64,000 nt of DNA, taken from positions 2,728,001-2,792,000 of the forward strand of contig NC_134469.1 in NCBI RefSeq assembly GCF_964194025.1. Direction: 5' to 3'. Below are positions 42,001 to 51,000 of this stretch, piece after piece; position 1 is the stretch's first letter, and every line of letters begins with the position of its first letter. A program made the position numbers. The DNA comes from Convolutriloba macropyga. Lineage: Eukaryota.

Positions 42001-45000
42001 CACAGTAATTAGCGTCATTTGACTGATAAATGTTGTCATCTGCAAAAAATGCAAACGAAGATTTTCTTTGTTTTTAGTGATCAGCTCAATATTTTATTGA
42101 TTGAGGGGACATCGTTTTCGTGCATAATTTTTCGTGCAAATTTTTCGTTTTTGCCTGTTTTTGTCTTTTTTTGTAGCCGTATGACATATCGTGGATAATG
42201 AATGACCTCAATTGCTCTCTATTGAGGTAGAAAATACTCAAAGATTTCATTTGATGCGTATAGTTTCTAATCAGTTCGAATTTAATTTTTTTAAAAAAAC
42301 AATGTTTTAATAAACTTTTGCCGCTTTTGCTCATTTCTTGTCGACTTTTTGCCAAGTTGCATTGAGGAAAAGTCCCATTTTTTGTTCCAAAAAGTACCGG
42401 TTAATCTTCTTAGTATAAAAATTATCTGATGACATTTTGATTTGGTTAATAGTGGTTTTCAAAAAATGGACAAGGATCTTTGGTCGTAATTAATATTTGT
42501 AACTGTTTGATTTTTATTGCCATCTTTTGTGGTAGTCATATTATTGTAGCCACAGGTCTCATAGGCCCTCTAGAATAGATTGTTTTATTCTTTTAGTAGT
42601 TTGTTGAACGATATGTTGATATGTTAATTTTTTTTATCTCTTCCTCATTTGCTAGACAATTAAGTGGAAAATGTAGATGAGCGGGGTCGGACTTAATGTG
42701 CAAACGGACATTACCGAGCCTCCTTGTTAAAGTTAATTTTTGAACTGCTCGTGATCATATTTTATGGGAAGTTCGCAATTAAGATGGATGCATCAAGGTG
42801 CTTCCCTTGACTGACCCAAAGTGAAGTTGAGATGAAGAAGCCAGTTTCTTCCTTTTGAAAATTTTGCATCTGTTTTGGTACATTCTAAATAGAAAGCTGT
42901 ATTTTGTTTTACTCTCTGCTAATAATGTTCCGACCCAAGTTGAGTTTAAGAGGATGCAGTGGTATTCGTTATGACTGTGACTTTTTAAATGTTTATGCGG
43001 CTCGTAGACTGGAAGTGTTTAACTGCGCTCAAACGAAGTTTGACTTGATTATTTGAGTCCATTGTCCTTTCTTATGCGATTTTTGCGTTTTCGATTTATT
43101 CTGACCTAATTTTTCAGGTAATTGTTTTGGCGGTTGACGTCTTGATTTTTGGGTTGACGCTTGACTTTCATTCAGGTTTTAAGTCGGGAACTTATTTCTG
43201 GCTGTTTATTACAAATTGAAACTACGAAAAATTGTCTTCCGGGTTTCTTTTCAAGGGCTATTAATTGTTATTTCTTGCTTTCGATGCAATTTTTCGTACT
43301 GCCGAATTTTTGTCGGATCGTTTGCGTTGGATCATTTGATTCTTTGTCCTCAAGTACGTGAAAGACAGGTAGAGCACTACGGCTCAATAGTTTCTAAGAA
43401 AGCAATTAATTGAAACTGTTTAAAAGCATATATTTATGTGAATAATTAAGTGTTGTCCAAAGACTTTGACCCCAAATTAAGTGTAGAGCCAATGGGGAAG
43501 TAATTCTTTTTCAATTTTTCTCCCTTTTTGCCTCAAAAATTAACAGAAAAATCTTTTGGATTGTTGACCAGCCTTATAATTTTTTGCTACTGTTTTCGAC
43601 GCTATTGTTTACAATTTGAGTCGTCGATGGATTGAATCGAGGATGGTAGCGTGCGTAACAAGTATTTAAATTGTTTTTTCGAAAGTACTACAATTGTTTA
43701 TTTTGGACAATTATTCTGGAAGACCTTATTGCAAAATGACTGTCTCGTATATGATTCTTACTAGATAACGATCTTCTAAGGACGACGGTTATCTTGTAAA
43801 AATTTGCAAGAGACCTCCAGAGTAACTATCTATTAATTAATTAATTGTGGTTTCTGCGTAATCGCAGAGGAACAGCATTAGGCCTACAGTAGCCTGTTCT
43901 CAGCTACCCTTTTTCTGATTATTCCCCACATTTCAGACTGTTCTTTTCATCAGCAGCATTGCTGTTTTTTTGGTGACTATCGCCACTTTTTTTGCGTCTG
44001 AAACTTTCACGTGGTACCATCATTGCAGCCAACATTGTTCAGGCTATGGTCAACCTGAAGCTATGGTTAAGTAAGAGCTCATCCTTAAACAGACAGCTTC
44101 ACGGAGGCAGGGGATTGAACTCTCAATCATTGGCGTGTGAAGCACACACCTTACATCTCGGCTATCTATCGTTTTTACTAAAAATGTTGAAAATGAGAAA
44201 TTAAAATGGAGCAGGTAAATCACTATCATGAGTTGAGCTATCAATATCAATCAGGTTCCGGTGTGAGTACATAACTAGATCATTATCTATTATAATACTA
44301 TAAACTAAATTATTTTAGAGCATTGTATAAAATAATTCTATAAAATAATTCACCTTATCATTAATTCTATCCTAAAATAATTCTATTATATAATTGTTAG
44401 GTGCTGATGATACGAATGGAAAGATAACGGGTGTCACAAAACCTGGCTCTAATGAATTTAATTTACAGATGTTCAAAGGGAAGCGATGCTTTTTATGAGG
44501 ATAAAACTCCAATCACTTATATTTTTCCGTACCATCAAATTAACGGAGATCAAGTCGTTTACATCTGTATGTTAGCTTTTGCTTAATTTTGAAGTGCCAT
44601 TTTTTGTATTGGTTAATTTAGCTATCCTACTCGCAAAACTTCCATAATACCGAAGATTACGTCAACATTACCTAATATAGGACAGTTGACGTAATAGGGA
44701 TCGTTTTCGCCAGGTGATGCAATAGGCGGGAGTATTGTTGAATTGCTGACGTAATATTCACTATAATTGGCTTGTAGTACTGCTCTAAAAGGGGGTACAA
44801 AAATTACCAACATCAGTTGAAACACTCACGTGCACATTTTAAAATGCCGAAAGTCTGCAGTGCCAGAAGTCAAAATGCCAGAAGTTGCTACTTAGCCAGA
44901 AGTTGAATTTCGTTGACTTTCGTCATTTTAAAACGTGCGCGTTTCGTGTTTTAAGCATAGTTAAATGACTCTGCAGAAGTCACTTCGACATTCTGACTTA

Positions 45001-48000: not shown

Positions 48001-51000
48001 GTCACTTAACCATTACTTAAAGATAGCGATAGCTCGTGGTTAATTACTTTAAAACAACGTTTTTAGCACTTAAATAAGTACTGTACGCAATTTTTAGCTT
48101 GACCAAGCGGTTGTCTGTCCCTTTTAACTTTTACACCTCAAAATGGGGTAAACAAGTAAAGCCCAGAGAGTCTTAAGTGGCCGAGCAGCTCTCTTAGAGT
48201 CTTACTCCTTACTGGTCTCTAATTATGCGATTCACCGAAACTGTTCTTAAGACAATTTCATGATGTTAAGGGTGGTTATTAATCTTAGTTGGACCCTCCC
48301 CCACCCTCAGTCTCCCCAGTACCTCTCCCTTCGCCCCAATCCCCCACCGCAACACTCGCCGTCCACCCTCCTACACCTGGCGATTTGATCCCCTCCTACT
48401 AGCCCTGCCAACCCTACCCCAAATCGCTTGACCCGCCTTAATTCTAGCAATCTTATGCACAGCACCAGCAGACTACTAGCAAAGCTAACCGCCCGCCGTT
48501 GTTTGGGAGCAATTCGTCTGACGTTAGTCGGTTCTGTTTATACTTTTAGTTAACTAAAAGCACACCCTGGGCAGAGTTTTCGCATAGAAACCAAGCAGTA
48601 AGCAACTTCTTCTTCAACGACATTGGTTGCGCTGAACTTTTTTTTGCTTAGGTTTATATCAGCTACTACAGTCCAACACGTCTAGGAACTACTAGATATA
48701 TGTGATCGGTTTAAATCCCGCGTCCCATAAGGCTTATTACAATAACGGTTTTTTTCGTGATATCAGCCAACTCATGAAACAATGCTGTTTCTACTGTCAT
48801 GGCGGGGTTGCAAAAACCTTGCAATCAGGGATTATAGAGGGTCGAATAAAATATTTGAGCTCATTAGCTATAGTTAATTGAATTCGACAATCAGTTAAAA
48901 AGAGGGCACGAGGCTCTCATTAACGGACAATTTGTACAGGTTATGCAGCCAATGAAGTAACACATTGCATCCGACCTGAAGATGTGACTGAGCGCAGAGT
49001 AGCCATCATTGTTCGGAGAGTTTTCCCAGATGCTCCCAGACTTACTTCCCAACAATACGATGCACTCTGTGAAAGACTCGATCGAAAAGCTTCCCAAGTT
49101 GATGGTCGAGGCGGGTTTAAACCCCCCATCCAACAGCCCGCAAGAGGCTTAAAACGACCTCTTGAGTATTCGAAACCTCCATTTGGTGCTATTGGTCAAC
49201 AGCAGCTAAGTGACGTATCTAGTTCCTCCGATGACGACGTCTCGGAACACAGAAAAGACTGCAACAAAAAGCCAAAAGTTTCGTAAATTTGAAGTTGTAT
49301 ATCACGATGAATGTGCAATTCCCTGAATGTGACAAATATGATTTATGGAGCCTTATACCAGGCGATTTAACGTTGAATTATAATTATTCTTTGAATTGTA
49401 ATATAATTATCCCTGTGAAATATTGACATATCTTTCAAAATTACTCAATCTTTTTTTTTACAAGAAATGAGATCATTGCATATAGGAGTATATATTACCG
49501 CTAAAGGCACCGTGGTTATTAGCCGTGCATGTATACAAAGTATTAATTACAAGCGTTTTGAGGTTAGCCATTCATATCTAATATCTATATCACATCAGTT
49601 CTTCAGAGTCAAGATTCGGAAATTATTTTGTCAATGGACTTTTATCCTTGCAAATTTGCAAAGAGCTTTTACACAAATTTGAGTTTCTGCAATGGTTTTA
49701 AATACACGCTTGTGAAATTAAATAAGTAAGCGTATAATATTGAGATTTTTTTGTGTGGCCCCCTAGATTTCCATATTTCCGAGATTTTTGTAGGATCCAA
49801 ACAGATCATCGTCCCAGTTCACCAAGGATAGCATTTAATTCAAGGATACAACTTTTGCAAGTCAGTGCGTTGAAAAAAAACTTTCAACCCAGTCAAATGG
49901 ATGGTCGAACCAAGCTTTTTGAATTTCAGTTTGGTTTATTTCTGTTTGTGTTTTCATGTTGTGCGGATGGTGTGTTTCCGAGGGGGGGGGGGGATGAATT
50001 TGATCAAATGGTCACGCTGTGGAAAAAATTATGAAGTGTGCGTTTTGTGTCTTCCAAATATTTGGAGGGGGTGTCTAATCGAATTTAAATGTTAAGAACG
50101 CACAAATATAGAATACGCAAAAATTTTAAGGTTTCTAGAAAAATTGTTGTTCGTGTTTTTCTTTGCTTTGCACCTGTGTTCAGGTTCAGGCTTTTGTAGG
50201 ACTAGCAGTTCGTAGCATTTTGATTTTCCAACTAATATTTTGTGCTATTGGAGATAACCGAGGAGCCTTATATTATTCCGAAGTTGCCTGGATTTTTTCT
50301 GTTCTGGATTATGAGCCTACCCGGATCGCTTTGCCTCAATTTCAATAATTAATAATACAAAGATTTGTTTTTTGAATTTTTATTTTTTCTAATTTTTAAT
50401 TGTTTTTTTTTTGTGTAGTATCTGGATGGTCGAAGCAAGTTTTTGAATTTCAATTTAGTTTATTTCTGTTTGTGTTTTCATGTTTTGCGGATGGTGTTTC
50501 CGAGGGGGGATGAATTTGATCAAATGGTCACGCTGTGGAAAAAAATATGAAATGTGCGTTTTGTGGCTTCCAAATATTTGGAGTGGGTGTCTCCCCCCCC
50601 AGAAACTTTTTTTAATGGTGCCTATCTTCTTTCTAAAGCGCATAAAAAGTATTGCGAACTTTGTTAAAAAAAGATAGACTGGCATAAGTTTTCGAAATTT
50701 TGGATAAATAAGTGCACCTTTGAGAGCAAAAAGAACAACTTAATATTATAACAATGATTTTTCCTCACCTAAAAAAAGTTCAAATTGACTTCTGTTCATG
50801 AAAGAAGTGACGCTTTCTCATCACGCTGACCTTAGGTAGGTGCTCGGTTGTTGTTGTTGTTGCTCTTTCATATTCAAGCCGAGAAGCTGTAAGCTTAGCG
50901 TAGCTATATTGCGGGGCTCTTTTTAAAAATTGACACAATTTTAATTGTATTGGTGCGCTACCTTTTTCGGAGGTTTTCTTCGTCTTCAACTTTTGTCTGT

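What the first reader, a model, noticed from the sequence alone, without database searches (positions are those of the whole stretch)
44817..48020. Twin double-hairpin elements tightly bracket ALKBH5 exons 1-2: possible circRNA / back-splicing geometry
Seen: the same ~265-bp element ends 22 nt before the acceptor at 45104 and starts 15 nt after the donor at 47740, and I found it nowhere else in the window. Each copy is two self-complementary ~130-bp modules, so direct copies can also pair with each other in the pre-mRNA. Established: complementary sequences in flanking introns promote back-splicing and provide ADAR substrates. Inference: a 614-nt circle (386+228) or regulated skipping of the exons holding the start codon and HxD motif of an m6A eraser. 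Local hairpins may out-compete long-range pairing.
Basis: partly seen in the sequence, partly recalled or inferred. Interest (0 to 1): 0.65.

Follow-up and report, generated by a model that had tools for sequence, protein, structure and literature searches.

The report
Twin foldback repeats flanking ALKBH5 exons
Two copies of a small hairpin-forming, transposon-like repeat sit just outside the first two coding exons of an invertebrate ALKBH5 gene; they could in principle zip together and favour a circular RNA, but they are more likely ordinary passengers that fold on themselves.

Summary
Copies at 44816-45083 and 47755-48021 are 92.9% identical over 268 columns, and the window has no third copy. 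Each folds into two long hairpins (-89.0 and -104.2 kcal/mol; 0 of 200 shuffles as stable). The host is an intact three-coding-exon ALKBH5 orthologue.

Each hairpin module is a palindrome bounded by TTAA, the unit is non-coding, and the flanks are unrelated. I read it as a MITE-like DNA-transposon relic of an undescribed family.

RNA modelling gives a near tie. The first module always folds locally. The second switches between two local hairpins and one 82-85-bp duplex across 2.8 kb, depending on parameter set, flanks, and MFE versus ensemble. An opposite-orientation pair would gain about 20 times more. A heuristic barrier of about 56 kcal/mol and the order of transcription favour local hairpins.

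Two caveats:
- The upstream AG at 45104 is unverified. A true first exon has no acceptor.
- Exon 2's acceptor is a non-canonical TG.

There were no RNA data and no genome-wide copy number. The circRNA reading is possible but unproven.

The parts
44816..45083 (+). Repeat copy 1 (268 nt). It holds two foldback modules, H1 at about 44817-44954 and H2 at about 44960-45073. Three of its five module boundaries are TTAA (44951, 44961, 45079); the other two have decayed to TTGA and TTAG.
47755..48021 (+). Repeat copy 2 (267 nt), in the same orientation. It holds H1 at about 47756-47892 and H2 at about 47893-48010. All five module boundaries are TTAA (47756, 47889, 47899, 48006, 48017). It is the better-preserved palindrome.
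45103..45104 (+). Candidate 3' splice site (AG), 7 nt before the start codon. It could be a cis acceptor of a 5'-UTR intron, a trans-splice acceptor, or a chance AG. Not verified.
   Evidence: inference
45105..45490 (+). ALKBH5 coding exon A, with the ATG at 45112. It aligns to residues 3-122 of the 291-aa relative P0001 at 76% identity. The donor after 45490 is GT.
45491..47512 (+). Intron 1 (2022 nt), GT...TG with a non-canonical 3' end. It carries a copy of another dispersed repeat at 45552-45739.
47513..47740 (+). ALKBH5 coding exon B, which carries the HxD motif. It matches Pfam PF13532, is 88% identical to P0001 residues 123-198, and its best solved-structure hits are ALKBH5. The donor is CAG|GT.
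47741..48939 (+). Intron 2 (1199 nt), GT...AG. It holds copy 2 from intron position +15.
48940..49286 (+). ALKBH5 coding exon C, which carries the second catalytic His and ends at the stop codon. It aligns to P0001 residues 200-248 at 76% identity.

Best explanation
The twin elements are two insertions, in the same orientation, of a ~260-bp non-coding repeat. The repeat is built from two unrelated foldback (palindromic) modules, each bounded by TTAA. I read it as a MITE-like relic of a DNA transposon from an undescribed family, in a repeat-rich invertebrate genome.

One copy lies 21 nt upstream of the AG that precedes the start-codon exon of an intact ALKBH5 orthologue. The other lies 14 nt downstream of the donor of the HxD exon.

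Where it is transcribed, each copy collapses as it is made into two long hairpins of roughly 40-55 bp. I infer that this is why insertions so close to splice sites are tolerated. These hairpins are plausible substrates for ADAR or Dicer.

The second modules of the two copies can alternatively form one 82-85-bp duplex that loops out both exons. That state is about as stable as the two local hairpins, but kinetically hard to reach. Any back-splicing or exon skipping it promotes is therefore most likely weak and incidental, not a designed control of the gene.

Shown: the repeat, its anatomy, the folds, the near tie in energy and the gene model. Inferred: transposon origin, co-transcriptional trapping and lack of function.
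For: Transposon-like anatomy:
- Two copies are 92.9% identical and their flanks are unrelated.
- Each module is a palindrome running from TTAA to TTAA. This holds at 5 of 5 boundaries in copy 2 and 3 of 5 in copy 1.
- The whole unit is flanked by TTAA...TTAA in copy 2 and TTGA...TTAA in copy 1.
- The longest stop-to-stop frames inside the copies are 41-48 aa. The 48-aa one has no protein relative.
- No Rfam family matches at gathering score over the whole window. In the permissive search of 43000-50000 only a sub-threshold U4 match (E 0.25) appears.
- The motif CCAGAAGT occurs 6 times in the window on both strands, all inside the two copies. This looks like subterminal repeats.
- The window is rich in other repeats, including another 243-bp palindrome and a 369-bp element with perfect 67-bp inverted ends.

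No sign of selection on structure: none of the 19 differences is a two-sided compensatory change. Six leave only copy 2 paired and 4 leave only copy 1 paired.

Local folding:
- The Turner-2004 MFE of 44780-48060 has all four modules as local hairpins and 0 inter-copy pairs.
- The same holds at 15 and 25 C and for 44500-48400.
- The direct-path barrier from the local to the inter-copy state is 55.7 kcal/mol (a heuristic upper bound).

Orientation: same-orientation pairing gains -10.8 kcal/mol with 85 pairs. The opposite orientation would gain -219.6 kcal/mol with 254 pairs.

Literature: in rice only 72 of 2354 circRNAs had MITEs on both sides (PMC4647462, passages read).
Against: - Only two copies were seen. 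Genome-wide copy number, empty sites and an autonomous partner could not be examined.
- The ends of the whole unit are not inverted repeats of each other.
- The module ends lack the CC[C/T]T motif of piggyBac-type elements (definition read in PMC2872659).
- Both copies sit at the TTAA site nearest the outer splice sites, about 1 in 300 under uniform use of TTAA sites. A neutral model does not predict this.
- Equilibrium modelling does not favour local folding overall. The Turner-2004 ensemble gives 75.2 expected inter-copy pairs and a top pair probability of 0.916.
- The Turner-1999 MFE has 82 inter-copy pairs. The Turner-2004 MFE of the flank-free stretch 44816-48021 has 83.
- With the rest of the structure held fixed, the inter-copy state is 6.1 kcal/mol lower.
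Confidence: 0.6

Rival explanations
1. The pair is a working back-splicing or exon-skipping device. The module-2 halves of the two copies zip into an 82-85-bp duplex. That brings the acceptor at 45104 and the donor at 47740 to the base of one helix. The result is a circle that contains the start codon, or an mRNA lacking the start codon and the HxD motif, and so lower ALKBH5 output.
For: - The inter-copy duplex dominates the Turner-2004 ensemble.
- It is the MFE under Turner-1999 and for the flank-free stretch.
- Free co-folding gains -10.8 kcal/mol.
- The helix would end 31 nt from the acceptor. On the other side only 14 nt plus one local hairpin separate it from the donor.
- Placement next to both outer splice sites is about 1 in 300 under uniform use of TTAA sites.
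- Flanking complementary repeats promote back-splicing (PMC8516420 and PMC5052039, passages read).
Against: - The upstream copy is not shown to be intronic. If the start-codon exon is the first exon it has no acceptor.
- The copies are in the same orientation, whereas the described case is reverse orientation (PMC8516420).
- The Turner-2004 MFE stays local in 4 of 5 settings.
- Hairpins form about 2.7 kb of transcription before the partner copy exists. The heuristic barrier to rearrange is about 56 kcal/mol.
- There is no covariation.
- There are no RNA data.
Confidence: 0.17
2. The hairpins are themselves the product. They would be intron-hosted long hairpin RNAs processed into small RNAs (endo-siRNA or miRNA-like) or heavily edited by ADAR, using ALKBH5 only as a host transcript.
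For: There are four stems of roughly 40-55 bp with strongly non-random stability. All four stay local in the Turner-2004 MFE. From general knowledge, not from a call: MITE-derived hairpins are a known source of small RNAs.
Against: - No Rfam family matches.
- The stems are much longer than miRNA precursors.
- Copy 1 has lost pairing at several sites without compensation.
- No small-RNA data were available.
Confidence: 0.08
3. The copies act at the DNA level as cis-regulatory modules. Copy 1 would be part of the ALKBH5 promoter and copy 2 an intronic enhancer, with the repeated CCAGAAGT motif as a factor-binding array. RNA pairing would be irrelevant.
For: - CCAGAAGT occurs 4 times in copy 1 and twice in copy 2, and nowhere else in the 64 kb.
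- Copy 1 ends 29 nt before the start codon.
- A mature 5' UTR is unlikely to contain copy 1. It would add four upstream ATGs (44844, 44875, 44965, 45093) and a -89 kcal/mol structure. This fits copy 1 being untranscribed promoter DNA.
Against: I matched the motif to no known factor site. Subterminal repeats of this kind are ordinary in non-autonomous DNA transposons. An intron or an outron explains the absence of copy 1 from the mRNA equally well.
Confidence: 0.08
4. The two direct repeats are the ends of one larger unit, such as LTR-like terminal repeats, a captured gene fragment or a segmental duplication, or they are an assembly artefact.
For: They are direct repeats of equal length, 2.9 kb apart.
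Against: - The copies do not begin with TG or end with CA.
- The sequences outside the pair share no target-site duplication.
- The interior is two conserved host exons that continue in frame into exon C outside the pair, collinear and gap-free with P0001.
- The copies differ at 19 positions, so they are not a collapsed or duplicated read artefact.
Confidence: 0.03

Closest known systems
Reverse-complementary repeat pairs (Alu, B1 and similar) in introns flanking circRNA exons
   Same: A repeat copy lies on each side of the exons, close to the splice sites, and can form a long RNA duplex that loops the exons out. Competition between alternative pairings decides the outcome (PMC8516420 and PMC5052039, passages read).
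   Different: The described case is two copies in reverse orientation. Here the copies are direct and pair only because each is a palindrome. Only one module can pair at a time (85 pairs versus 254), and each arm has a closer partner within its own copy. No back-splice product is known here.
MITEs flanking plant circRNAs (rice; maize transposon pairs)
   Same: Small non-coding DNA-transposon relics lie on both sides of the circularised exons.
   Different: In rice only 72 of 2354 circRNAs had MITEs on both sides (PMC4647462, passages read). I saw the maize preprint (10.1101/100578) only as a search listing. Those are plants, and no case in an m6A eraser gene is reported there.
piggyBac/TTAA MITEs, for example coral CMITEs
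   Same: They are small and non-coding with TTAA at the element boundaries. CMITEs also occur as tandem arrays and gave rise to a composite element (PMC2872659, abstract and first part of Results read).
   Different: piggyBac-type ends carry a CC[C/T]T motif and 12-19-bp inverted ends. The modules here start with AACAC and GTGAC and are palindromic over nearly their whole length, like foldback elements. TTAA is itself part of the palindrome, so it need not be a target-site duplication.
Hairpin versus extended-duplex dimerisation of palindromic RNAs (the HIV-1 dimerisation site is the textbook case; recalled, not from a call)
   Same: Two identical self-complementary hairpins can convert into one longer intermolecular duplex. 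That duplex is more stable but kinetically hard to reach without a chaperone.
   Different: Here the two hairpins are tethered in one pre-mRNA 2.8 kb apart, have about 40-bp stems, and have no demonstrated loop-loop contact.

Membership tests
MITE / non-autonomous DNA transposon | Small and non-coding | tested here: met
   The copies are 267-268 nt. The longest stop-to-stop frames are 41-48 aa. The 48-aa frame has no protein relative.
MITE / non-autonomous DNA transposon | Terminal inverted repeats | tested here: inconclusive
   Each module has inverted ends: 28-nt arms at 89% and 20-nt arms at 80% (folds). The two ends of the whole 268-nt unit are not inverted repeats of each other.
MITE / non-autonomous DNA transposon | Target-site duplication at unrelated insertion sites | tested here: inconclusive
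   Copy 2 is flanked by TTAA...TTAA and copy 1 by TTGA...TTAA, and the flanks are unrelated. But TTAA is palindromic and part of the stem, and a TA duplication fits as well.
MITE / non-autonomous DNA transposon | Many dispersed copies in the genome; empty sites | not testable with these tools
   There are two copies in 64 kb. No eukaryotic genome collection or repeat library was available.
piggyBac/TTAA superfamily | CC[C/T]T terminal motif in 12-19-bp inverted ends (as stated in PMC2872659) | tested here: not met
   The modules begin with AACAC and GTGAC directly after TTAA.
Back-splice-promoting intronic complementary sequences | Both partners lie in the introns flanking the circularised exons | tested here: inconclusive
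   The downstream copy is intronic: exons B and C are collinear with P0001. The upstream copy precedes an unverified AG 7 nt before the ATG.
Back-splice-promoting intronic complementary sequences | Partners in reverse orientation giving one extended duplex | tested here: not met
   The copies are in the same orientation. They form 85 inter-copy pairs, against 254 if one copy were inverted.
Back-splice-promoting intronic complementary sequences | Across-intron pairing wins over within-intron pairing | tested here: inconclusive
   Local pairing wins in the Turner-2004 MFE in 4 of 5 settings. Inter-copy pairing wins in the Turner-2004 ensemble, in the Turner-1999 MFE and for the flank-free stretch.
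Back-splice-promoting intronic complementary sequences | An observed back-splice junction | not testable with these tools
   No RNA-seq data were available.
ALKBH5 (host gene) | 2OG-Fe(II) oxygenase fold with HxD...H, and closest to ALKBH5 among solved structures | tested here: met
   Exon B matches PF13532 (33.2 bits against a cut-off of 31.2). All 5 solved-structure hits are ALKBH5, the best at E 1e-35. The named hits to exon A are all ALKBH5 or hypothetical proteins. HVD is in exon B and THC in exon C.
Known RNA families (Rfam 15) | A match at gathering score | tested here: not met
   There are 0 matches in the whole window. The only match at E up to 1 in 43000-50000 is U4, at 20.4 bits against a gathering score of 46.
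LTR-type terminal repeats | TG...CA ends, a duplication flanking the pair, and a retroelement interior | tested here: not met
   The ends are not TG...CA. The outer flanks are unrelated. The interior is conserved host exons.

The most novel reading that the evidence does not exclude
A same-orientation pair of palindromic transposon relics works as a bistable RNA zipper. Each copy's second module sits within a few kcal/mol of switching from a private hairpin to an 82-85-bp bridge across 2.8 kb. A helicase, ADAR editing, temperature or transcription speed could then set how often the start-codon and HxD exons of an m6A eraser are circularised or skipped. This would be a way for direct repeats, not inverted repeats, to control back-splicing.
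Probability: 0.1. Interest if true: 0.6.

Novelty: new member of a known kind. Interest (0 to 1): 0.35.

Why it matters
If the pair does drive circularisation or skipping, it would show two things:
- Direct copies of a palindromic transposon can stand in for the inverted pairs that the circRNA field searches for.
- The dose of an m6A eraser in an invertebrate can be set by a transposon accident.

As it stands, the locus is a clean worked example of why such pairs are ambiguous. The local and bridging folds are equal within model error. Screens that only co-fold two repeats, as is commonly done, would call this a strong dimer. Transcription order argues against that call.

Tried and rejected
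- **Known RNA.** The Rfam permissive scan of 43000-50000 gave only a U4 match at 47988-48112 (E 0.25, 20.4 bits against 46). I treat it as chance. The whole-window Rfam scan and ARAGORN found nothing.
- **Element copy number by proxy.** A search with the 48-aa frame of copy 2 against the protein collection found no candidate.
- **Modules related to each other?** blastn of H1 against H2 gave only 7-10-nt matches. They are not homologous.
- **First barrier estimates.** Estimates between whole-transcript structures gave 97-129 kcal/mol. They are inflated because the two structures differ at 220-405 pairs elsewhere. One search, which changes only the module-2 pairs, replaces them.
- **Andronescu parameters.** The run returned numbers identical to Turner-1999. 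I do not count it as independent.
- **Cross-check of the ensemble result.** A partition function with all inter-copy pairs forbidden hit the 300-s limit and printed nothing. I did not repeat it, so the ensemble figure has no independent check.
- **Pfam.** Five other long frames, including one in the satellite, gave no family.
- **Literature.** A search for 'circALKBH5' returned 0 papers.

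
Full report
**Provenance and limits**

The window has no N and is 30-41% G+C. I do not take it for human:
- The start-codon exon is only about 54% identical to vertebrate ALKBH5 proteins.
- Its closest relative is an unnamed 291-aa protein, P0001, at 76%.
- The locus is full of repeats foreign to a mammalian ALKBH5 locus.

I left out the joined step: no spliced model, no circle sequence and no reading frame across a back-splice junction was built. 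Genome-wide copy number and all transcript evidence therefore stayed unchecked. No supplementary files were needed or seen.

**The observation**

It is correct.
- The repeat finder reports the two halves of the match: 222 nt at 93% and 45 nt at 96%.
- blastn at word size 7 joins them: 44816-45083 versus 47755-48021, 92.91% over 268 columns, E 3e-112. Nothing else in the 64 kb scores better than E 0.19.
- The alignment shows homology beginning and ending abruptly, with unrelated flanks. There are 19 differences.
- As RNA, copy 1 folds at -89.0 kcal/mol (z -6.8) and copy 2 at -104.2 kcal/mol (z -10.5). None of 200 shuffles does as well in either case. Each copy forms two separate long hairpins.
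- Copy 1 ends 21 nt before exon position 45105. Copy 2 starts at intron position +15 after 47740.

**The gene**

Three frames encode an ALKBH5 orthologue:
- Exon A, 45105-45490, with the ATG at 45112.
- Exon B, 47513-47740.
- Exon C, 48940-49286.

They align without gaps to P0001 residues 3-122, 123-198 and 200-248, at 76%, 88% and 76% identity. Exon B matches Pfam PF13532. All five of its solved-structure hits are ALKBH5, the best at E 1e-35.

Two corrections to the gene model:
- The collinearity fixes the A/B junction at 45490|47513. That makes intron 1 GT...TG, not GT...AG. The only canonical in-frame AG nearby, before 47537, would delete eight conserved residues; I read this from the sequence. 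TG 3' splice sites exist in human genes (PMC2374985, search listing only). An A-to-T change in a ...tttacag acceptor, or an assembly error, is equally possible.
- The AG at 45103-45104 is only a candidate acceptor.

On the second point, the mature mRNA very likely lacks copy 1. Copy 1 would put four upstream ATGs (44844, 44875, 44965, 45093) and a -89 kcal/mol structure in front of the start codon. That fits a 5'-UTR intron, an outron removed by trans-splicing, or an untranscribed promoter equally well.

**What the element is**

Each module is a palindrome that runs from one TTAA to the next. In copy 2, TTAA sits at 47756, 47889, 47899, 48006 and 48017, which is all five module and unit boundaries. 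In copy 1, three of the five survive and two have decayed to TTGA and TTAG.

Further features:
- The two modules are unrelated to each other apart from the short motif CCAGAAGT.
- All 6 occurrences of that motif in the window lie in the two copies.
- The unit is non-coding.
- It matches no Rfam family.
- The window holds several other repeat families, including foldback and inverted-end elements.

I therefore read the unit as a MITE-like or foldback relic of a DNA transposon that moved as a two-module composite. It is not a member of the piggyBac/TTAA group as defined in PMC2872659 (section read), because the CC[C/T]T end motif is absent. The composite also has no inverted ends of its own.

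The 19 differences include no two-sided compensatory change. They more often break pairing in copy 1 (six sites paired only in copy 2) than in copy 2 (four sites paired only in copy 1). This looks like neutral decay, although two sequences make a weak test.

**Can the copies pair with each other?**

Yes, but only one module at a time, because pairing H1 with H1 and H2 with H2 together would cross.

| Setting | Result |
|---|---|
| Free strands, co-folded | -204.0 versus -193.2 kcal/mol for the two alone; 85 inter-copy pairs, all H2:H2 (44960-45073 with 47893-48010) |
| 44780-48060, Turner-2004 MFE, 37 C | -870.9 kcal/mol; four local hairpins, 0 inter-copy pairs |
| Same, H2:H2 forced | -866.6 kcal/mol |
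| Same, H1:H1 forced | -864.4 kcal/mol |
| Same, 15 C and 25 C | Local |
| 44500-48400, Turner-2004 MFE | Local |
| 44816-48021 (no flanks), Turner-2004 MFE | 83 inter-copy pairs |
| 44780-48060, Turner-1999 MFE | 82 inter-copy pairs |
| 44780-48060, Turner-2004 ensemble | 75.2 expected inter-copy pairs; top pair probability 0.916 |
| Rest of structure held fixed | Bridged state 6.1 kcal/mol lower |

H1 is local in every run. The two H2 states are therefore equal within the error of the model. The model also charges nothing for closing a 2.7-kb loop.

Two further results bear on the outcome:
- Had copy 2 been inserted in the opposite orientation, co-folding would gain -219.6 kcal/mol with 254 pairs, against -10.8 kcal/mol with 85 pairs for the real arrangement.
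- The best direct path from the local to the bridged state passes a saddle 55.7 kcal/mol up. This is a heuristic upper bound.

Copy 1 is transcribed about 2.7 kb before copy 2. I therefore infer that its hairpins form first and stay, unless a helicase or chaperone intervenes.

**Placement**

If insertions used TTAA sites uniformly, copy 2 took the donor-nearest of 15 sites in intron 2. Copy 1 took the acceptor-nearest of 20 sites in the upstream 2 kb. This is about 1 in 300 jointly, which is the best argument for function. It is post hoc: the locus was picked for this geometry, and the number of copies genome-wide is unknown.

Two neutral accounts are available:
- Foldback insertions may be tolerated close to splice sites because they collapse on themselves.
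- An insertion into a 5' UTR could have been followed by use of the nearest AG to splice it out.

Both are inference.

**Verdict**

The most likely reading (0.6) is a pair of transposon relics that fold locally, are tolerated, may feed ADAR or Dicer, and promote back-splicing weakly if at all.

The closest known systems are reverse-complementary repeat pairs flanking circRNA exons (PMC8516420 and PMC5052039, passages read) and MITEs flanking plant circRNAs (PMC4647462, passages read). This locus differs from them in the same-orientation, palindrome-mediated pairing. A search for 'circALKBH5' found no paper.

I rate it a new member of a known kind, with moderate to low interest, and it is cheap to test.

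Noticed in passing
window 47500-47513: The acceptor of the HxD exon is TG (…tttacTG|TG…), not AG. Gap-free collinearity with P0001 fixes the junction. It may be a real TG 3' splice site, a splice-site mutation in this individual, or a base error.
   Followed up: partly
window 49898-64000: A satellite of about 1014-1028-bp units, with one 746-bp unit, starts roughly 600 bp after the ALKBH5 stop codon. It has about 14 copies at 85-93% identity and runs off the end of the window. TRF misses it because its period limit is 500. A 215-aa frame inside it has no Pfam match.
   Followed up: partly
window 1-3305: A tandem repeat with a period of about 1183 bp, 2.8 copies at 98-99% identity, starts at the window edge.
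   Followed up: no
window 14950-15189: A 243-bp near-perfect palindrome, 88% identical to its own reverse complement. It is another foldback or MITE-like element, its ends lie next to TTAA/TAA, and it is unrelated in sequence to the twin element.
   Followed up: partly
window 24546-24914: A 369-bp element has perfect 67-bp terminal inverted repeats (100%) around a 13-bp tandem repeat at 24676-24750. It looks like a young MITE.
   Followed up: no
window 45552-45739 (intron 1); also 13344-13717, 23416-23815, 35937-36097: An older dispersed repeat family at 72-81% identity has one copy inside ALKBH5 intron 1.
   Followed up: no
window 40395-41487: Two tandem units of about 537 bp at 96% identity lie upstream of ALKBH5.
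   Followed up: no
window 1-64000: ALKBH5 is the only recognisable gene. No tRNA and no Rfam family is present, and the five other long frames I scanned have no Pfam match. This suggests a large, repeat-rich genome.
   Followed up: partly
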